The notes below the pieces were generated by a model that did no database searches, had not been told where the DNA came from, and was given only the letters and a program-made list of their open reading frames with translations. From a virus: a DNA stretch of 64,000 nt. Positions 1 to 12,044 of the stretch are shown here, piece by piece; the first letter of the stretch is position 1; every line of letters begins with the position of its first letter. A program made the translations under genes and the position numbers. The stretch lies in the IMG/VR virus record IMGVR_UViG_3300023179_000016, positions 64,001-128,000 of that record; one strand, given 5' to 3'.

Positions 1-2
1 CA

Positions 3-143
3 CTACAAGCCAGCATCGTACGCCTATTGCTCACCCAAGACGGATATATCACTCCCAGCGACCCATCGGACGAGCCATGCACCCACACCGCAGACCTCTT
101 GCTCCTGCTATATAAGATGGGCCTAGGGAGACTCCGCGCATGA
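3..143 (+). CDS. Partial small hypothetical protein (micro-ORF array member, 5' truncated)
   Basis: Hand translation LQASIVRLLLTQDG...DLLLLLYKMGLGRLRA*; its TGA overlaps the next ATG (ATGA at 140-143). Confidence 0.5.
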   Translation, partial: LQASIVRLLLTQDGYITPSDPSDEPCTHTADLLLLLYKMGLGRLRA

Positions 144-316
144 GGCTCCACGACACCAGGGACCTGCTCAAGGTACTCGAGAAGCTCAATATCGCCTCCG
201 CCAGCGAAAAGATAATGAGCGAGCTCACCGAGCACATGAAGCTGTGGTTTGGCCATTTTGATCAGGCTCACCCGGGCGCATACGCACCTATAGTCGACAA
301 AAATGAAGAAAACTGA
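140..316 (+). CDS. Small hypothetical protein, 58 aa (micro-ORF array)
   Basis: Hand translation MRLHDTRDLLKVLEKLNIAS...; ATGA coupling upstream; overlaps the next gene by 14 nt. Confidence 0.55.
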   Translation: MRLHDTRDLLKVLEKLNIASASEKIMSELTEHMKLWFGHFDQAHPGAYAPIVDKNEEN

Positions 317-707
317 GTTTGACGAGCATATGTATAGGCGCCTGGCTGGCTTCTTGGGCTGCATGGGCATAGAGATAGACGATTCTATGCTCGACCTGAT
401 AAGGCGACACCACTGGCTCGACATGCGACAGGCGCGGCGCCCGTTCAAGCGCTACGGCGAGGACGACGATCTAGGCGACGAAGACGGCACCCTGTATCTC
501 GCCGCAGCCGCGAGCGACGCACGGGACATAAAGCCGTGCGGATGCGAGTGGAATATAGTGAGACGTGTTCTCTATAAGGGGCAATGGTGTGTAGGCTGCT
601 CGATGCACTTGATAGAGTTGCTAGAGATGCTCGGCGTCATCAGGGGTGAGGGAAGCGTCGAGGCCACCGTCATGTCGGCGCAAAAAGATGAGTGCGGCGC
701 CTGGTAA
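303..707 (+). CDS. Hypothetical protein, 134 aa (micro-ORF array)
   Basis: ORF track; contains CGC...CVGC and the motif LIELLEMLGVI. Confidence 0.6.
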   Translation: MKKTEFDEHMYRRLAGFLGCMGIEIDDSMLDLIRRHHWLDMRQARRPFKRYGEDDDLGDEDGTLYLAAAASDARDIKPCGCEWNIVRRVLYKGQWCVGCSMHLIELLEMLGVIRGEGSVEATVMSAQKDECGAW

Positions 708-891
708 GACCGTACACGTCAGGCTCAGATGTGAGGGCGAGGAGTCGCTCGTCAGGTTGTTGAGCCGTCTAGAGGTGATACAATTATTAGCTATGCTGTA
801 CGAGTACGGCTCTTCGAGAAGCATGTCGAGCCGCGCGTACGATGCAGTGATAATTGTCTCTAGGGGTGACGAGGCAGATGAAAATCGATGA
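688..891 (+). CDS. Small hypothetical protein, 67 aa (micro-ORF array)
   Basis: ATG at 688 within track ORF 646..891; motif LVRLLSRLEVI. Confidence 0.55.
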   Translation: MSAAPGKTVHVRLRCEGEESLVRLLSRLEVIQLLAMLYEYGSSRSMSSRAYDAVIIVSRGDEADENR

Positions 892-1105
892 CGTGCTTAG
901 ATATATCATGGCTTTTGCGGAGCAGGACCGGTGGAATACCAGGATGAATGGGTTGCCGCAGGATGCAGTGGTGCGCTTGCTCATGAAGCTGAGAGTTGTG
1001 GATGGGGTGGGGGCCCTAAGAAGCGTTGATGGAGAAAGATGCGGGGCGTGCGGATCAAGCAATAGACAAGAAGACAAGTATGTCGCTTTTATGGAGAGTA
1101 AGTAG
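878..1105 (+). CDS. Small hypothetical protein, 75 aa (micro-ORF array)
   Basis: ATG at 878 preceded by GAGG; motif VVRLLMKLRVV; CxxC near the C-terminus. Confidence 0.55.
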   Translation: MKIDDVLRYIMAFAEQDRWNTRMNGLPQDAVVRLLMKLRVVDGVGALRSVDGERCGACGSSNRQEDKYVAFMESK

Positions 1106-1129
1106 AAGATAATCTCTTACTTTGTTTTT

Positions 1130-1282
1130 GTGAAGTTTATAGTGGATTTTGAGAGATCTAACGACATGCCGGTTACCAAGGATTTTCTATGTCTTATAGA
1201 GAAGCTTGGTATATTAAAATTTAAGCAGCTTTACAGTCTCGAGCACTGGTTTTCTGACATAATGATAATAGAGTATGACTAG
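1130..1282 (+). CDS. Small hypothetical protein, about 50 aa (micro-ORF array)
   Basis: Hand translation (GTG)KFIVDFERSNDMPVTKDFLCLIEKLGILKF...EYD*; start uncertain. Confidence 0.45.
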   Translation: MKFIVDFERSNDMPVTKDFLCLIEKLGILKFKQLYSLEHWFSDIMIIEYD

Positions 1283-1376
1283 CAACAGGCAGTTCAGTGA
1301 CTGGTATCAGCACGCGCAGAGATTGGCCAAGAAGATATCGTTTAGAAGATTCATATATCGATTGTTAAAAGTGTAA
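1275..1376 (+). CDS. Micro-protein, 33 aa (micro-ORF array)
   Basis: MTSNRQFSDWYQHAQRLAKKISFRRFIYRLLKV*; overlaps the previous stop; TAATG coupling to the next gene. Confidence 0.5.
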   Translation: MTSNRQFSDWYQHAQRLAKKISFRRFIYRLLKV

Positions 1377-1501
1377 TGAGCGACACAGAAGATAGCGATA
1401 CGATAAGAGACACTAAAAAATTCTTTGACTACCTGTCTTGCGCGTTCGCCAAGAAGATGGTCCTCATAGAGTTTCTGCGCAGATTGATGAAGATGCCATG
1501 A
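1376..1501 (+). CDS. Micro-protein, 41 aa (micro-ORF array)
   Basis: MSDTEDSDTIRDTKKFFDYLSCAFAKKMVLIEFLRRLMKMP*; TAATG and ATGA coupling at the two ends. Confidence 0.55.
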   Translation: MSDTEDSDTIRDTKKFFDYLSCAFAKKMVLIEFLRRLMKMP

Positions 1502-1692
1502 GCCACGTCAGCGATAACAATCTCATAAGGGTAAGGGAATATCAGGTGAAGCGCAGACTTGTCAGATTCATATACAAGATGATAGATAAGCCCATCGCGA
1601 CTAGCATGATCGATGCCCTTATGGAGTCGTTTAATATAAGTCTAAATGAAAACTACGAACTGATAGTGAAAGATATAGACGACATCAGCTAG
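1498..1692 (+). CDS. Small hypothetical protein, 64 aa (micro-ORF array)
   Basis: ATG 1498 (ATGA overlap) within track ORF 1438..1692; motif RRLVRFIYKMIDK. Confidence 0.55.
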   Translation: MSHVSDNNLIRVREYQVKRRLVRFIYKMIDKPIATSMIDALMESFNISLNENYELIVKDIDDIS

Positions 1693-1843
1693 TGGCAATC
1701 TCACTCGCCAGCTTTGTCATATAATCTACCCATAGATCATCTGGGTTTGCATTCTTGATGCCTAGAAATCTCAATAGAGATAACATCGACATTGCCGCAT
1801 CTATCTCTCTATATGTTGAGTTCTTGTTCACGGTGGCCGGCAT
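1685..1843 (-). CDS. Small hypothetical protein, 52 aa (micro-ORF array)
   Basis: Hand translation MPATVNKNSTYREIDAAMSMLSLLRFLGIKNANPDDLWVDYMTKLASEIATS*. Confidence 0.5.
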   Translation of the reverse strand: MPATVNKNSTYREIDAAMSMLSLLRFLGIKNANPDDLWVDYMTKLASEIATS

Positions 1844-1967
1844 TTCTGGAATGAGAGAATAGTAGTTTATACATGAAAAATTTAAGCTCTAATGCGTAAT
1901 AGACATTGACCTTGCCATGTCTACTGCCTATATTGAAATTTAATTCTCTGTCAAATATCTTTTCCAT
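1809..1967 (-). CDS. Small hypothetical protein, 52 aa (micro-ORF array)
   Basis: ATG 1967 preceded by GAGGG, within track ORF 1809..2000; motif LKFFMYKLLF. Confidence 0.5.
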   Translation of the reverse strand: MEKIFDRELNFNIGSRHGKVNVYYALELKFFMYKLLFSHSRNAGHREQELNI

Positions 1968-2103
1968 GTGTATTCCCTCGCGTGTTGGCAGAGGAAACAT
2001 TCATAAATTTGTGTTAGCCTCTGCGTTCAAAAGCTATCACTTAATTATATCAGTGAACAACACTAGAGTTAAGATGTTGACTTAAATTAATAATTATTTA
2101 AGT

Positions 2104-2265
2104 TCAATATGGAAATGCGTTTGCAGAAGAGGATGCAACTTCGCCGGATTGGTATTTCTTATATATTTCTTCGCCGACGAGCTTCATCATGAACATGTAT
2201 AGTGAAAATTTTATATTTTCTTCTATATGTCTGTTGAAAAGCAGATTGTTTATTTTCGATCCCAT
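2104..2265 (-). CDS. Small hypothetical protein, 53 aa (micro-ORF array)
   Basis: Hand translation MGSKINNLLFNRHIEENIKFSLYMFMMKLVGEEIY...FPY*; overlaps the end of the upstream gene. Confidence 0.5.
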   Translation of the reverse strand: MGSKINNLLFNRHIEENIKFSLYMFMMKLVGEEIYKKYQSGEVASSSANAFPY

Positions 2266-2489
2266 TTATATTCTTGTACCTCGACGTCTCCTCCCATCAA
2301 GGTGTGATGCATTAAAACATCTACTGCCATTCTGGATCGCTGCTGTGTGGTTGGAGGGACTGTATTCAAGAATTCAGGTAAGCATATGCCTCTAAACGGA
2401 CACTTTGAACAGCGCTGCGATTCCATGCACTTGCCGTCTAATTCAATTATCTGCTCTAATATTTCTACATCTTCTGAATTAAGAGCCAT
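2250..2489 (-). CDS. Small 4-Cys protein (putative Fe-S or Zn binding), paralog of 2479..2736
   Basis: ILEQIIELDGKC-x5-C-x2-CP-x4-C. Confidence 0.7.
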   Translation of the reverse strand: MALNSEDVEILEQIIELDGKCMESQRCSKCPFRGICLPEFLNTVPPTTQQRSRMAVDVLMHHTLMGGDVEVQEYKWDRK

Positions 2490-2736
2490 TGTTTCCTAAA
2501 AGATCGTCTACGGCTTCATCTAATAGCAACTTAGTTGCTATCTCGAGATATTTTGCATCGGCCTGTTCCTCAGTAAGATCTTCGATTCCTACAGCCTCGA
2601 CGCAAGACATCCAGGTGCCATCTGGTTTTTGCTTTAACTTACTCATAGGGCATGTTGCACATATGTTGGGTTTTGCCCAGCAACAGTTGCCTTCCTCTTC
2701 TATTATTTTTTTTAAGATGTTCTTCTTCTGGTCCAT
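2479..2736 (-). CDS. Small Cys-rich protein (putative Fe-S or Zn binding), paralog of 2250..2489
   Basis: ILKKIIEEEGNCC-x6-C-x2-CP...C. Confidence 0.7.
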   Translation of the reverse strand: MDQKKNILKKIIEEEGNCCWAKPNICATCPMSKLKQKPDGTWMSCVEAVGIEDLTEEQADAKYLEIATKLLLDEAVDDLLGNNGS

Positions 2737-2807: not shown

Positions 2808-3131
2808 ATGATATCAATTACTAAAAATGCTGCACAAGAGTTACTAAGGCTTCTTGAAGGCAAAGACAAGGATACATATATAAGAATTAGAGTTATAGGA
2901 GGCGGCTGCTCTGGCTTAAATTACAAGTTAGATTTTGACAATGAATCTACAGTTTCGTCTGACAAGATAGTCATATTTGATGCTGTCAAGGTGGCCATAG
3001 ATAGTAAGTCAGCACTATTTTTAGACAAGACTGAGTTAGATTATAGTGGAGGTTTAAATGGCAAAGGTTTCACGTTTAATAATCCAAACGCTAAAAGAAC
3101 ATGCGGATGTGGTTCTAGTTTTAGCGTATAA
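2808..3131 (+). CDS. iscA: A-type iron-sulfur cluster carrier (HesB/IscA/ErpA family)
   Basis: GGGCSG motif, NPNA, and C-terminal TCGCGSSF signature; 107 aa. Confidence 0.93.
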   Translation: MISITKNAAQELLRLLEGKDKDTYIRIRVIGGGCSGLNYKLDFDNESTVSSDKIVIFDAVKVAIDSKSALFLDKTELDYSGGLNGKGFTFNNPNAKRTCGCGSSFSV

Positions 3132-4031: not shown

Positions 4032-5618
4032 ATGCCAAAGGTAGTCAGCAAAGCACAATATAGGATGATGCAGGGAATTCTGCATGGTAAACACAAGGGC
4101 ACCAAAAGAGGCGATCATGGTCCACCTAAATGGGCTATCGAGCATTATGATTTTCCAGATTATAAATCTCTTCCAGAATCTAAGGGAAAAGAGTTGGAAG
4201 GTGGTCATTGGGGACATGGGGATGGCAACAGCGAATACCATAAGCACAAAACTAGAAAAGAATATAATAAGCACCATCCGCATCACGGTCATGGAAGAAA
4301 TAAAAAAAATAAAGATGAATCTAAAAAGTCGCATGAAAAGAAGAAAAAATCTTTAAAGAAGACAGATTCTGGCTATGAGTGGGCCGCGATGATACTGATG
4401 GATGACAACAATAGGGTTCTATTGGGTCAGCATACTGACGGTAGTTTAGCATTTCCAGGTGGACATGTTGACTCTACTGATCCAGATACAGAAGTCACTG
4501 CTATCAGAGAAACCAAAGAAGAGACAGGCATTGAAGTACAGACTGCAACTAAAATTTGGAGCTCTAAGGGCAAAAATAAAGGCGATCTGTATATAGCAGA
4601 AAAGTTCACAGGTTCTCCTAAAAACAGCAATGAGCTTAAAAATTTAAAGTGGCATGAGCCTCATGAAATACAGTGGGAAGATGTTAGAGATTGCTGTGTC
4701 AAACCGCTAAAATATTTTATTAAATATAAGCTCGGCAAATCTTTGAAGGGCATGATGGCCCTAGAATCTTTAAATAAAAATATAGTTAGACAGAAGTCAG
4801 GTGTAACACACGAGATAACTCACGGCGATGCACTAAGATTGATTGGCACAGGTTTATTTAAAAAAATTAAAAAAGAAGTCGAGGACATGCAGGATGAGGA
4901 CTTTAGAGATTTTAAATTAGACACTTGCACAGTTAAGATAAGAAAACACATGAACGATGTCTATTCAGGTAACGTTGTAGATGGCCATAAAACCATATAT
5001 CAATTTACTAATAAATCTCTGCCAGAAGTTACTGCTGCACTCATGAGTGTTTTTGAGTGGTACTTGCCAGAAGATGAGGATATTCTAAACACGATCGATG
5101 AGAAGAACATATCTGATGACGATATACATGGTGGCCTATCTGCTCTAATAGATCATTATAAAAAGCACAACATAAGCAACATCTATGCTGAGATGGAAAA
5201 TATTCGCGAAGAGATAAGAAATGGTGTCGCAGTAGATGTTCAGCAGATAGAAGCCAGAATAATGAAGTTATTTGACAAGCTAGAAGATGTAGTGCACACG
5301 ATAGTAGATAAGCACAACACTCTAAAAGATTTAACAGAAAAAGAGTTAGAAGAGATCGATAAAAAATTACGCGAACTACAGTCGAAGATCGACGACATGA
5401 ATAAGAAATCAGAAACTGTAGAGGCTATTTCTGTACATAAAAAGAACCCAGAAAAAATTCTTAGAGAAGAATACTCTTACCTGCCAAGACCCTCTATAGA
5501 GATTTCGCCAGAAGGCAAAATCAAGATAACGTTTGACTCCGAATGGACATCGCTTGAAAAAGAAAATTTCTTGCATGATCTCCGTGCCAAAGTACTTAAA
5601 AAAGAGAAAAGCAAATAA
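4032..5618 (+). CDS. Multidomain protein: His/Lys-rich N-terminus, NUDIX hydrolase domain, coiled-coil C-terminal region
   Basis: Nudix box FPGGHVD...AIRETKEETGI; tract HHPHHGHGRNKKNK. Confidence 0.75.
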   Translation: MPKVVSKAQYRMMQGILHGKHKGTKRGDHGPPKWAIEHYDFPDYKSLPESKGKELEGGHWGHGDGNSEYHKHKTRKEYNKHHPHHGHGRNKKNKDESKKSHEKKKKSLKKTDSGYEWAAMILMDDNNRVLLGQHTDGSLAFPGGHVDSTDPDTEVTAIRETKEETGIEVQTATKIWSSKGKNKGDLYIAEKFTGSPKNSNELKNLKWHEPHEIQWEDVRDCCVKPLKYFIKYKLGKSLKGMMALESLNKNIVRQKSGVTHEITHGDALRLIGTGLFKKIKKEVEDMQDEDFRDFKLDTCTVKIRKHMNDVYSGNVVDGHKTIYQFTNKSLPEVTAALMSVFEWYLPEDEDILNTIDEKNISDDDIHGGLSALIDHYKKHNISNIYAEMENIREEIRNGVAVDVQQIEARIMKLFDKLEDVVHTIVDKHNTLKDLTEKELEEIDKKLRELQSKIDDMNKKSETVEAISVHKKNPEKILREEYSYLPRPSIEISPEGKIKITFDSEWTSLEKENFLHDLRAKVLKKEKSK

Positions 5619-10271: not shown

Positions 10272-10829
10272 ATGGCTAAAAAACCGATTTTTATAACAGG
10301 CGCAAATGCTAAACTTAAAATAGACGGTAAAACATTTGCATATGCACAAGATGTCAGCTATAGTGTCGCAGTAGATACTATCCCGATTGAAACAATGGGT
10401 CGCTATGAAGCTGTAACCAATGAACCAGTAAATTATTCTGTCGCTGGCGAGTTTGCTATTGTTCGGTACACTTCTGCTGCTGTTGCCGCACAGGCAGGAA
10501 TAGATGCTGCGGCATCTGGCGGTAACGGATTAGGTAACGTCAAGGGTAACAATAACAGCACCAACGGTTTATCTTCCCATGTTAATCCAGGTAAACTATT
10601 GGACTCTGTGACATGGGATTTAGAAGTTTTTCAAAAGGGTGCAGGAGCGGGTACCAATGCTCCGGTAATAAAGGTCTTAGATTGTCGCATCACTAGAAAG
10701 AGTGGTGGCCTCAATAAAAGAGGTATTTTAGTCGAGAGAGTTTCATTTGTTGGTCTACTACATGCCGACGAATCTATGACAGGTCAGCAGGCAGTTTCCA
10801 ATTCTGGTGACACTGATCTTAGCGGCTAA
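10272..10829 (+). CDS. Tail tube protein (major)
   Basis: TGANAKLKIDG...DVSYSV...IETMG pattern; AAGGA RBS and its own terminator. Confidence 0.8.
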   Translation: MAKKPIFITGANAKLKIDGKTFAYAQDVSYSVAVDTIPIETMGRYEAVTNEPVNYSVAGEFAIVRYTSAAVAAQAGIDAAASGGNGLGNVKGNNNSTNGLSSHVNPGKLLDSVTWDLEVFQKGAGAGTNAPVIKVLDCRITRKSGGLNKRGILVERVSFVGLLHADESMTGQQAVSNSGDTDLSG

Positions 10830-10858
10830 ATTAACAATAACAATAGTTTGAATATAAG

Positions 10859-10889
10859 AAGGACGTCCTCAAGGCGTCCTTTTTATTTT
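10859..10889 (+). terminator. Rho-independent terminator
   Basis: AAGGACGTC-ctcaa-GGCGTCCTT followed by a T-tract. Confidence 0.75.
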
Positions 10890-10905
10890 ATGATACAATA
10901 TATTT

Positions 10906-11460
10906 ATGGGCAATAAACCATTTTTTTTAACGGGCGCAAATGCCAAAATTAAAGTCAATGACATGACCGTTGCTTTCTGCACCGATGTATCTTATTCTGT
11001 TCAAATAATGCATCAGACACCTAAAATTTTAGGTATGTATGAAGGCACATCTGTAGAACCTATTGGTTATAATGTTTCTGGCTCATTTAGAGTTGTTAGA
11101 TATGTTAGAAACGCTGTAGATAATTTAGGTGCCCCATCTGGATCTAAGGCTAAAAATAGTGGCAATGGTATAGGTAATATGTCGTCTAGTGGACCTTGGC
11201 TCACTAACGATGCGCAAACACATCTATCTCTTGTTCCTGCTGATTTAGAAAACGCTATGGGTTTTGATCTAGAGATACATCAAAAATTATCAACTGGCGA
11301 ATTTTTAGGCGTCGCTAAGATAAGAAATTGTAGAATAGTTCAAACAGATTTTTCTTTGTCTAAGAGAGCAGCAGCAATACAAACTTATAATTTTGTTGCT
11401 CTATATGCAGACGAAGATAGCTTTATCGCAGATTTTAGTGGCAGAGGGCAGCACTTCTAA
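10906..11460 (+). CDS. Tail tube paralog 2
   Basis: KPFFLTGANAKIKVN...DVSYSV, clearly homologous to 10272..10829. Confidence 0.78.
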   Translation: MGNKPFFLTGANAKIKVNDMTVAFCTDVSYSVQIMHQTPKILGMYEGTSVEPIGYNVSGSFRVVRYVRNAVDNLGAPSGSKAKNSGNGIGNMSSSGPWLTNDAQTHLSLVPADLENAMGFDLEIHQKLSTGEFLGVAKIRNCRIVQTDFSLSKRAAAIQTYNFVALYADEDSFIADFSGRGQHF

Positions 11461-11462
11461 TT

Positions 11463-12044
11463 ATGGCTAAAACAGGCTTTGATAACGGCAGCGGATTTAA
11501 AAATGTTGGAGAAAATCTAACTAGTTCTTTTGGTAGTTTATTGTCTGCTAGACCTACAGCCAAATATGCTTCTGGTGCTCGATGTTTATTAAAAATAAAC
11601 AATAAATTGTGTGGTTTTGCGTTTGCTATTTCTTGGAGAATAACTACACAATCTACCGAAATTAACACAATAGATGATCCATTCGCATATGAACTTGCTC
11701 CTCAAAGAATTACAGTAGATGGCACTATATCTGCCTTACATATACCGGGTGAAGGTATTGGAGTTAAGTTATGGCAACCAGATTCATTAAATTTTTTATT
11801 TCAACAGTATATAACGATAGAGGTTAGAGATTCTGCCACTGATAACTTATTGTTTTTTACTGATAGAGCTATGATAGTTAGTAGACAAGAAGATATAAAA
11901 GTAGATTCTTTGGCCAATGTTCAATTAAGTTGGAGAGCAATAGGATTCAAGGATGAAAGAGAACCTAAATTGCCGGATGGACTCGACAACGGTACGCCTT
12001 TAGAAAACGCCTCTAAATTCCTTAAAAAATTAACATCATTTTAA
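11463..12044 (+). CDS. Tail tube paralog 3 / tube initiator-like protein
   Basis: SGARCLLKINN...ISWRI...INTID, a diverged tube pattern. Confidence 0.65.
   Translation: MAKTGFDNGSGFKNVGENLTSSFGSLLSARPTAKYASGARCLLKINNKLCGFAFAISWRITTQSTEINTIDDPFAYELAPQRITVDGTISALHIPGEGIGVKLWQPDSLNFLFQQYITIEVRDSATDNLLFFTDRAMIVSRQEDIKVDSLANVQLSWRAIGFKDEREPKLPDGLDNGTPLENASKFLKKLTSF

What the first reader, a model, noticed from the sequence alone, without database searches (positions are those of the whole stretch)
3..2265. Array of about 12 coupled micro-proteins that share one amphipathic helix motif
Seen in sequence: hand translation shows a nearly gap-free chain of 33-134 aa ORFs, joined by ATGA/TAATG or short overlaps. 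Nine are on the + strand and three converge from the - strand; several fall below the track cutoff. They show no other evident similarity, yet each carries roughly h-x-x-[LF]-[LIM]-x-[KR]-[LM]-x-[IVL]: LLLLYKMGL, LLKVLEKLNI, LIELLEMLGVI, LVRLLSRLEVI, VVRLLMKLRVV, FLCLIEKLGIL, FRRFIYRLLKV, LIEFLRRLMKM, LVRFIYKMIDK, MLSLLRFLGIK, LKFFMYKLLFS, LYMFMMKLVGE. Two neighbours also share the extension AKK. Inference: this is a diversified library of small effectors with a common docking or sorting helix (LxxLL-like) fused to variable cargo, for example competing for one host or phage hub protein, or anti-defence peptides. I know of no described system of this form.
Basis: partly seen in the sequence, partly recalled or inferred. 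Interest (0 to 1): 0.8.

Follow-up and report, generated by a model that had tools for sequence, protein, structure and literature searches.

The report
Phage microprotein array sharing one helix
An uncultured 153-kb tailed phage carries a row of about 13 real, tightly packed genes for tiny proteins that share nothing detectable except one short helix-plus-turn motif; relatives have the same motif at the same place, its job is unknown and I found no published description of it.

Summary
The ORFs exist as described. The chain starts 131 bases before the window and has 13 motif-bearing ORFs, followed by two conserved Cys-rich genes. Nine or more ORFs have collinear orthologues in two related contigs, with non-synonymous change below synonymous change, so they are genes.

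The shared motif is far above chance. An unsupervised motif search recovers it (z 5.9 against shuffles, 3.3 to 5.7 against real proteins). Leave-one-out scoring gives p<0.025 for 12 of 13 ORFs. Only 2 of 95 other small ORFs of this genome, and 1 of 42 in T4, reach the same score. Codons under the motif vary freely, so the constraint acts on the protein.

In about 20 related contigs a sharper 13-residue form (L..[LF]L.[KR]LG-I-K-S-A) marks at least 18 sequence families, at the same genomic position. Some of those proteins also carry copies of tail-sheath, tail-tube or capsid segments. I detected none of these in this window.

Predicted folds differ around the motif: a helical hairpin in one protein, beta-alpha-beta-beta in another. 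This favours a portable module. Whether it docks onto a common partner was not shown.

The scan found this motif before on other DNA (note e1-5291028). I found no Pfam or PHROG family, no cultured phage and no paper that describes it.

The parts
1..143 (+). o01, 50-aa ORF (true start at window -9, ATGA-coupled to an upstream 41-aa ORF at -131..-6); motif core at 96-119, 7 residues from the C-terminus
   Evidence: homologue in L002 (E 1.6e-6); leave-one-out p<0.0005
140..316 (+). o02, 58 aa; motif core 164-187 followed by N-I-A-S-A, the closest match in the + strand set to the relatives' L-[GN]-I-K-S-A cap
   Evidence: orthologue in L077 (pN/pS 0.79); hhalign 52% and 43% to motif families 154 and 9
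303..707 (+). o03, 134 aa; motif core 609-632 near the C-terminus; conserved CGC...C...CGAW cysteines
   Evidence: GC3 0.70-0.77 in this frame; orthologues in L002 and L077
688..891 (+). o04, 67 aa; motif core 748-771
   Evidence: 65% identical orthologue in L077, 44% in L002
878..1105 (+). o05, 75 aa; motif core 968-991
   Evidence: orthologues in L077 and L002; hhalign 82.6% over 42 columns to family 9 of relatives
1130..1282 (+). o06, 50 aa, GTG start; motif core 1184-1207 forms the C-terminal half of the only helix of a predicted beta-alpha-beta-beta fold
   Evidence: AlphaFold2 pLDDT 86.6; orthologues in L077 (66%) and L002 (38%)
1275..1376 (+). o07, 33 aa; motif core 1341-1364, 3 residues from the C-terminus; found only in this genome
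   Evidence: paralogue of o08 (BLASTP E 5e-4; 14-nt DNA repeat 1323 and 1445, spacing 122)
1376..1501 (+). o08, 41 aa; motif core 1463-1486, 4 residues from the C-terminus; found only in this genome
1498..1692 (+). o09, 64 aa; motif core 1558-1581
   Evidence: orthologues in L077 and L002
1685..1843 (-). o10, 52 aa; motif 1763-1786 plus G-I-K-N-A cap; member of a conserved family (family 10) of the relatives
   Evidence: hhalign 95.9%; 14-sequence alignment A1; predicted helical hairpin with the motif at the end of helix 1 plus the loop; 73 cluster representatives, all but one 37-77 aa, among 1.84 billion
1809..2000 (-). o11, 63 aa (probably 52 aa from the ATG at 1967); motif core 1863-1886
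   Evidence: family in 29 related loci; orthologue in L077
2104..2265 (-). o12, 53 aa; motif core 2179-2202
   Evidence: family in 31 related loci; pN/pS 0.34 against L077
2250..2736 (-). o13 (2250-2489) and o14 (2479-2736): paralogous Cys-rich proteins without the motif; first genes of the - strand operon that runs into o12-o10; o13 occurs in the same clade as the motif arrays
   Evidence: 94.4%; invariant C-x5-C-x2-C-x5-C in o13; CCGA-N3-TATA box directly upstream of o14 at 2751

Best explanation
This is the variable accessory-gene cluster of an uncultured myovirus lineage. It lies between a GC-rich early-gene island and the virion structural module.

It encodes at least 13 translationally coupled microproteins (33-134 aa). 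Each contains one copy of a lineage-specific, portable helix-plus-cap module. In this genome the module is h-x-x-[LF]-[LIM]-x-[KR]-[LM]; in relatives it is sharpened to L-x-x-[LF]-L-x-[KR]-L-G-I-K-S-A.

The array grows by tandem duplication and by joining the module to new sequence. The module is kept by selection on the protein.

Inferred mechanism: the module is a common handle. It is an amphipathic helix end with a basic residue and a Gly cap that binds one shared partner or a sister module. The variable remainder of each protein supplies a different target-binding part. In some relatives that part is visibly copied from assembly-interface segments of sheath, tube and capsid proteins.

Shown: the genes are real, the motif is non-random, acts at protein level and is shared across families and relatives, and it appears in different predicted fold contexts.

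Inferred: that it binds anything.
For: Genes are real:
- Collinear orthologues of 9-10 ORFs in L002 and L077.
- pN<pS for all 9 comparable pairs.
- Coding-type GC3 pattern on the + strand.
- The antisense long ORFs have no homologues.

Motif is real. A T4 control gives 1 of 42 small ORFs.

The constraint is on the protein: synonymous codons vary at every motif position.

The motif is localised in relatives:
- 56 of 60 pattern hits lie within 7 kb upstream of the structural gene, and 2 lie downstream.
- Hit density peaks at 8.5 per 10 kb against about 1 elsewhere.

Portability:
- At least 18 BLAST families carry it.
- Its position ranges from residue 9 to 103, and in o01, o07 and o08 it is almost C-terminal.
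- The predicted context is a hairpin in o10 and beta-alpha-beta-beta in o06.
- In relatives it sits before or after copies of sheath residues 1-22, tube about 3-35, capsid 43-91 and giant-protein 1-39.
- The similarity to the sheath gene starts at the start codon and not in the upstream DNA.

Duplication: o07 and o08.
Against: - No partner is known.
- In both predicted structures the helix is part of a compact fold. Its hydrophobic face is therefore probably buried within the protein (inferred).
- The sequence pattern (hydrophobic 1-4-5-8, basic residue, Gly, hydrophobic) is also what a generic amphipathic helix with a Schellman-type C-cap looks like (established structural knowledge). Part of the conservation may therefore be purely structural.
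- Profile comparisons sometimes extend to 35-45 columns, as expected for diverged paralogues rather than a shuffled tag.
- In this window the motif is degenerate, and no virion-protein copy was detected in any ORF.
- Expression is not shown.
Confidence: 0.45

Rival explanations
1. The proteins form one old, very fast-evolving paralogue family produced by tandem duplication. The motif is just the best-conserved folding nucleus (helix end plus Gly cap). Each member acts on its own, with no common partner.
For: - o07 and o08 are tandem paralogues.
- hhalign gives a network of weak to moderate links, some over 35-45 columns.
- The helix is part of the compact fold in both models.
- The pattern matches generic helix-capping rules (established knowledge).
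Against: - Predicted folds around the motif differ: hairpin versus beta-alpha-beta-beta.
- In o01, o07 and o08 the protein ends 3-7 residues after the motif, leaving nothing to pack against.
- In relatives the flanks are demonstrably of different origin, being copies of different virion proteins on either side of the motif.
- Most inter-family links cover only 13-19 motif columns.
Confidence: 0.35
2. The helix is a sorting signal that loads the microproteins into the virion or onto an assembly intermediate. This would be analogous to the capsid targeting sequence of T4 internal proteins, with the proteins delivered into the next host.
For: - The cluster abuts the structural module.
- Cargo is diverse behind one conserved short element, as described for T4 internal proteins (PMC3012670).
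- Relatives join the helix to virion-protein segments.
Against: - The motif is not N-terminal and is not followed by an evident protease site.
- The - strand half shares the CCGA-N3-TATA box of the neighbouring cassette genes, which an unverified first-reader note calls early, rather than anything seen in the structural module.
- There are no virion proteomics data.
Confidence: 0.08
3. The motif is helix 2 plus the turn of small helix-turn-helix DNA-binding regulators.
For: h-x-x-h-h-x-x-L-G-[IV]-x-S resembles the classic HTH signature (my own knowledge).
Against: - No HTH family in Pfam matches any of 20 proteins tested, even at E up to 0.1-1.
- There is no conserved recognition helix after the turn.
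- o10 is predicted as two helices and o06 as beta-alpha-beta-beta.
- Three members end right after the motif.
Confidence: 0.04
4. Artefact: these are chance ORFs in GC-rich or AT-rich DNA, and the motif reflects leucine/lysine-rich composition.
For: - The ORFs are short.
- The first 1.1 kb is GC-rich, which produces long spurious ORFs.
- Shine-Dalgarno sequences are weak or absent.
Against: - The ORFs are conserved in order, frame and ends in L002 and L077, with pN<pS.
- An independent gene caller called the same genes on L077.
- Controls with real small proteins of the same genome and of T4 give about 2% hits against 60-90% in the array.
Confidence: 0.02

Closest known systems
T4 internal proteins (IPI, IPII, IPIII and relatives) with the capsid targeting sequence (PMC3012670)
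   Same: A set of highly diverse small phage proteins that share only one short conserved peptide, which acts as an address label. The set is polymorphic between related phages.
   Different: - The T4 signal is N-terminal, directs the protein into the scaffolding core and has proven function.
- Here the motif is internal or C-terminal and has a different sequence.
- Here there is no evidence of packaging or cleavage, and the genes sit in coupled arrays on both strands.
Hyperplastic regions of T4-type phages and their mobile promoter/stem-loop cassettes (PMC2839356)
   Same: Dense runs of small, fast-turnover genes of unknown function that differ between close relatives, next to conserved modules.
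   Different: - Those cassettes are defined by repeated DNA (promoter plus stem-loop) that mediates shuffling.
- This array has no repeated DNA modules, and the shared element is a peptide with free synonymous codons.
Earlier finding of this scan on another genome (note e1-5291028; also e1-5661203)
   Same: The same helix (L..FL.KLGIKSA) in a run of about fifteen tiny genes of an uncultured phage, some joined to the first residues of capsid, tail-tube and baseplate proteins. I reproduced both points independently on 75 related contigs.
   Different: In this window the motif is more degenerate. Only o10 and o02 keep part of the G-I-K-S-A cap, and no virion-protein copy was detectable.
Generic amphipathic helix with a Schellman-type glycine C-cap (structural motif, established knowledge)
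   Same: Hydrophobic residues at 1, 4, 5 and 8, a basic residue before the last turn, then Gly followed by a hydrophobic residue. In both models the motif is the C-terminal end of a helix followed by a turn.
   Different: A generic cap would not be about 30-fold enriched in one gene cluster. It also would not keep the I-K-S-A extension across 18 families.

Membership tests
T4-type internal proteins with capsid targeting sequence | Conserved targeting peptide at the extreme N-terminus | tested here: not met
   Motif starts at residues 9-103 of 33-134 aa. It is never at the N-terminus, and in three cases it is nearly C-terminal.
T4-type internal proteins with capsid targeting sequence | Presence in the virion and cleavage by the prohead protease | not testable with these tools
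   There is no cultured phage and no proteomics.
LxxLL (nuclear-receptor box) type docking motif | Strict L-x-x-L-L core that binds a defined hydrophobic groove of a known partner class | tested here: not met
   Only a minority of the 13 cores read L-x-x-L-L; F, I, M and V replace L at positions 4 and 5. The partner class is eukaryotic. The similarity is a resemblance only.
Helix-turn-helix DNA-binding domains (Pfam HTH clans) | Significant match to an HTH profile, and a three-helix core with a recognition helix after the turn | tested here: not met
   No HTH family at E up to 0.1-1 for 20 proteins. The models show two helices or beta-alpha-beta-beta.
Promoter/stem-loop gene cassettes of T4-type hyperplastic regions | Repeated regulatory DNA module flanking each small gene | tested here: not met
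   The repeat search over 1-2800 finds only 14-21-nt chance-level repeats, plus the o07/o08 duplication. The one CCGA-N3-TATA box lies upstream of o14 only.
Lineage-specific 'L..FL.KLGIKSA' microprotein module (undescribed; seen in relatives and in scan note e1-5291028) | One copy per small ORF of the helix-plus-cap motif, scored by leave-one-out matrix or profile | tested here: met
   12 of 13 ORFs have p<0.025. o10 joins family 10 at 95.9% and o05 joins family 9 at 82.6%.
Lineage-specific 'L..FL.KLGIKSA' microprotein module (undescribed; seen in relatives and in scan note e1-5291028) | Location in the variable cluster just upstream of the structural module, next to the o14/o13 genes | tested here: met
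   Same order as in L002, L077, L004, L005, L011, L021 and L033. There is a positional peak in 75 loci.
Lineage-specific 'L..FL.KLGIKSA' microprotein module (undescribed; seen in relatives and in scan note e1-5291028) | Fusion of the helix to copies of virion-protein segments (in some members) | tested here: not met
   Found in relatives. No ORF of this window matches the genome's own proteins (best E 0.054) or the structural-protein profiles.

The most novel reading that the evidence does not exclude
This is a bait-and-handle system. The phage lineage keeps a fast-evolving library of microproteins in which one common helix (the handle) is joined to short baits. Some baits are copied from the strand-exchange or N-arm interfaces of its own sheath, tube and capsid proteins. 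The library would let the phage time or poison virion assembly (its own or that of co-infecting relatives), or occupy host sensors that recognise these structural proteins. This window's array would be a diverged set whose baits are no longer recognisable.
Probability: 0.15. Interest if true: 0.85.

Novelty: new variant of a known kind. Interest (0 to 1): 0.6.

Why it matters
Small phage genes of unknown function make up much of phage 'dark matter', and most have no handle for study. Here a single 8-13-residue peptide ties together dozens of otherwise unrelated microproteins across a whole uncultured lineage.

This gives one concrete experiment: mutate or pull down on the helix. That experiment could reveal a common partner and with it the role of an entire gene cluster.

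If the relatives' fusions to sheath, tube and capsid interface segments are functional, they would be the first natural case I know of where a phage encodes tagged fragments of its own structural proteins. That would bear on assembly control, competition between phages and evasion of host sensors for structural proteins.

If the helix turns out to be only a folding nucleus, the cluster is an ordinary, though unusually traceable, fast-evolving paralogue family.

Tried and rejected
- **DNA-level element** (promoter or recombination joint) under the motif: rejected. All six Leu codons, both Ser codon families and all four Gly codons are used at the conserved positions, and there are no repeated DNA modules.
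- **Capture of the sheath gene's promoter and leader** as the reason for sheath-N-terminus copies in relatives: rejected. Identity is 52-70% in the first 66 coding bases but 27-30% in the 60 bases upstream.
- **Copies of this genome's own virion proteins in the window's ORFs**: none. The best phmmer E is 0.054, and structural-protein profiles hit none of the window's ORFs.
- **Antisense long ORFs** (2-448 and 787-1077 on the - strand) as the real genes: rejected by codon-position GC and by lack of homologues.
- **Family searches**: Pfam and PHROG gave nothing usable. The weak RpbA (E 0.017) and phrog_13288 (E 7e-4) hits of o09 were not pursued.
- **Wider searches that gave nothing**:
  - megablast against phages;
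  - related loci of o03;
  - tblastn of family 10 and o14 against cultured phages;
  - ESM Atlas look-alikes of o03, best score 0.78;
  - Rfam;
  - paper search for the motif string and for decoy or fragment ideas.
- **Fold search with the o06 model** against PDB and viral models: no match at E<=0.001, only generic small alpha/beta hits.
- **Complex prediction of o13 with o10**: no verdict.
- **Look-up of earlier notes** by sequence and by relatives: nothing.
Full report
**Context**

The window is bases 64,001-128,000 of a 153,399-base IMG/VR virus record. The record is a myovirus: it has a tail sheath and virion structural proteins. Its closest cultured relative is only distant (Myxococcus phage Mx1, 32% identity in the sheath protein).

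The first 1.1 kb of the window is the end of a GC-rich island. That island spans genome 57-65 kb at 52-58% GC, against about 38% for the backbone. Its genes are small and lie on the - strand; I did not test when they are expressed.

From window 2808 onwards everything is + strand: an IscA/HesB-like gene followed by the structural module.

The finding lies between these two blocks.

**Anatomy**

- Reading the genome upstream shows that the + strand chain starts after a 300-nt divergent intergenic region, with a 41-aa ORF at window -131..-6. The first ORF of the finding really starts at -9.
- Ten + strand ORFs are joined by ATGA or TAATG junctions or by 8-20-nt overlaps.
- This + strand chain converges on a - strand operon. 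The operon starts at a CCGA-N3-TATA box upstream of o14 (2736) and runs through o14, o13, o12, o11 and o10.
- That box occurs 19 times on the - strand of the genome and never on the + strand.

**Are they genes?**

- Codon-position GC supports the + strand frame of 303-707 rather than the long antisense ORF.
- The closest IMG/VR relative, L002 (81% identity in the structural protein), has homologues of o01, o03, o04, o05, o06, o09, o10, o12, o13 and o14 in the same order and orientation.
- A closer contig, L077, was found through the one database homologue of o04. It has orthologues of o02-o06 and o09-o14, and an independent gene caller called them as genes.
- Synonymous sites are saturated. 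Non-synonymous change is nevertheless lower in every pair (pN/pS 0.25-0.79, against about 0.1 for the structural protein).
- o11 and o12 belong to families present in about 30 related loci.
- o07 and o08 occur only in this genome. They are tandem paralogues of each other (BLASTP E 5e-4, plus a 14-nt DNA repeat with 122-nt spacing).
- The ORF at -131..-6 has no confirmed homologue.

**Is the motif more than chance?**

- Its log-likelihood exceeds all 60 shuffled sets (z 5.9), all 60 sets of length-matched pieces of the genome's long proteins (z 3.3) and all 60 sets of its other small ORFs (z 5.7).
- With a matrix built from the other twelve ORFs, 12 of 13 score at p<0.025.
- In the 45,738 windows of the genome's other proteins, only 5 reach 10 bits.
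- Only 2 of 95 other small ORFs reach 10 bits, against 8 of 13 array ORFs on their leave-one-out scores (Fisher p 1.5e-7). Among the small ORFs of the first 50 kb of T4, 1 of 42 does.
The core h..[LFV][LIM].[KR][LM] fits 10 of 13.
- The codons under the motif differ freely, so the constraint is on the peptide.

**Relatives**

I fetched 75 loci through the neighbouring structural protein.

- Matrix hits peak 1-3 kb upstream of that gene: 5-8.5 per 10 kb, against about 1 elsewhere.
- The relatives show a sharper, longer form of the motif: L-x-x-[LF]-L-x-[KR/D]-L-[GN]-I-[KR]-S-A.
- 56 of 60 matches to its cap lie within 7 kb upstream, and 2 lie downstream.
- The full 13-residue pattern occurs in 46 ORFs of 21 loci, in at least 18 BLAST families, with up to 5 copies per locus.
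- Synonymous codons again vary at every position.
- Profile comparison places o10 in one of these families (95.9%). It links o05 to another family (82.6% over 42 columns) and links o02 weakly to two more. Most links between families cover only the 13-19 motif columns.
- The clade most distant in the structural protein has o14 but neither o13 nor any motif ORF. This co-occurrence is confounded by descent.
- The o10 family has 73 cluster representatives among 1.84 billion. All but one chance-like hit are 37-77 aa.
- The o10 family and o14 have no homologue in cultured phages.

**Earlier notes of this scan**

After I had found the long form of the motif, a look-up showed that the scan had met the same helix on another genome (e1-5291028). 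That note claimed fusions to the first residues of virion proteins. A similar case is e1-5661203.

I tested the fusion claim. In relatives, small motif ORFs carry copies of:

- tail-sheath residues 1-22;
- residues about 3-35 of the tube-like proteins;
- capsid residues 43-91;
- residues 1-39 of the 2376-aa protein.

These copies lie before or after the helix. Profiles of the structural proteins confirm them. The similarity begins at the start codon and not in the upstream DNA. So a peptide is retained, not a captured promoter or leader.

None of this window's own ORFs shows such similarity.

**Structure**

- o10, with a 14-sequence alignment, is predicted as a helical hairpin (pLDDT 69). The motif forms the end of helix 1, and the G-I-K-N-A stretch forms the loop.
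- o06, with three orthologues, is predicted with pLDDT 86.6 as beta-alpha-beta-beta. The motif forms the C-terminal half of its only helix.
- Fold searches gave nothing specific.
- The same peptide therefore ends a helix in two different predicted folds. In o01, o07 and o08 the protein stops 3-7 residues after the motif.

**Reading**

The shared element behaves like a portable helix-plus-cap module. A fast-evolving gene cluster keeps it while everything around it changes.

Three points favour a function of its own, most simply binding to a common partner or to sister modules:

- the different flanks and predicted folds;
- the variable position within the protein;
- conservation across many families.

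Three points argue against:

- its resemblance to a generic capped amphipathic helix;
- its integration into compact predicted folds;
- the paralogy signals.

These fit a diverged family whose folding nucleus is the last thing to change. I put the handle model at 0.45, the folding-nucleus model at 0.35, a virion-sorting signal at 0.08, HTH at 0.04 and artefact at 0.02.

Nothing here shows binding, expression or timing.

**Known systems**

- The nearest analogy is the capsid targeting sequence shared by the diverse T4 internal proteins (PMC3012670). The position, the sequence and the evidence all differ.
- The T4-type hyperplastic regions with mobile regulatory cassettes (PMC2839356) share the genomic behaviour but rest on repeated DNA, which is absent here.
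- No paper in the library contains the motif string.

Noticed in passing
genome 57,000-65,100 (window 1-1100 is its end): An 8-kb island at 52-58% GC in a 38% GC phage genome. It is filled with small - strand genes. These include three copies of a 160-208-aa family (genome 57851-58333, 62021-62647, 63085-63567) and four or five small genes that share two constant peptide blocks. L002 and L077 are also GC-rich at this place.
   Followed up: partly
window 2250-2736 (-) and 2808-3131 (+): o13 and o14 are paralogous 79- and 85-aa proteins. o13 has an invariant C-x5-C-x2-C-x5-C cysteine set. In this genome, L077 and L003 they sit beside an IscA/HesB-type iron-sulphur assembly gene (PF01521). They may be metal- or cluster-binding proteins. 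They have no Pfam family and no homologue in cultured phages.
   Followed up: partly
whole genome; window 2751: CCGA-N3-TATA occurs 19 times on the - strand and never on the + strand. One copy lies directly upstream of o14. It may be a strand- or class-specific promoter box, as first-reader notes on this genome also suggested.
   Followed up: partly
L001:1195-1310 (window -305..-190): A 15-nt box (AAAATAGGGCCCGCC) occurs twice, 99 nt apart, in the divergent intergenic region ahead of the + strand array. The second copy overlaps a terminator-like hairpin on the - strand.
   Followed up: no
L021:5059-5244, L033:3428-3568, L052:7314-7448, L051:7471-7695, L011:150-401, L011:800-1024, L011:1054-1323, L044:5990-6214: Small ORFs of relatives that join the shared helix to diverged copies of sheath, tube, capsid or giant-protein segments. 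The sheath copies are more diverged than any real sheath N-terminus in the set.
   Followed up: yes
window 10272-12044: Three consecutive genes of 184-193 aa are paralogues: their profiles hit the same small ORFs. They lie just after the sheath gene and are probably tube-like proteins.
   Followed up: no
window 4032-5618: A 528-aa protein in the structural module carries a NUDIX hydrolase domain (PF00293, E 9e-14). It also gives a weak hit to a portal-protein PHROG.
   Followed up: no
motif positions 7-8 in relatives: The Lys-Leu pair of the motif is often written AAG CTT: 17 of 37 for each codon. This is more than at the other Leu positions. It is minor and unexplained.
   Followed up: no
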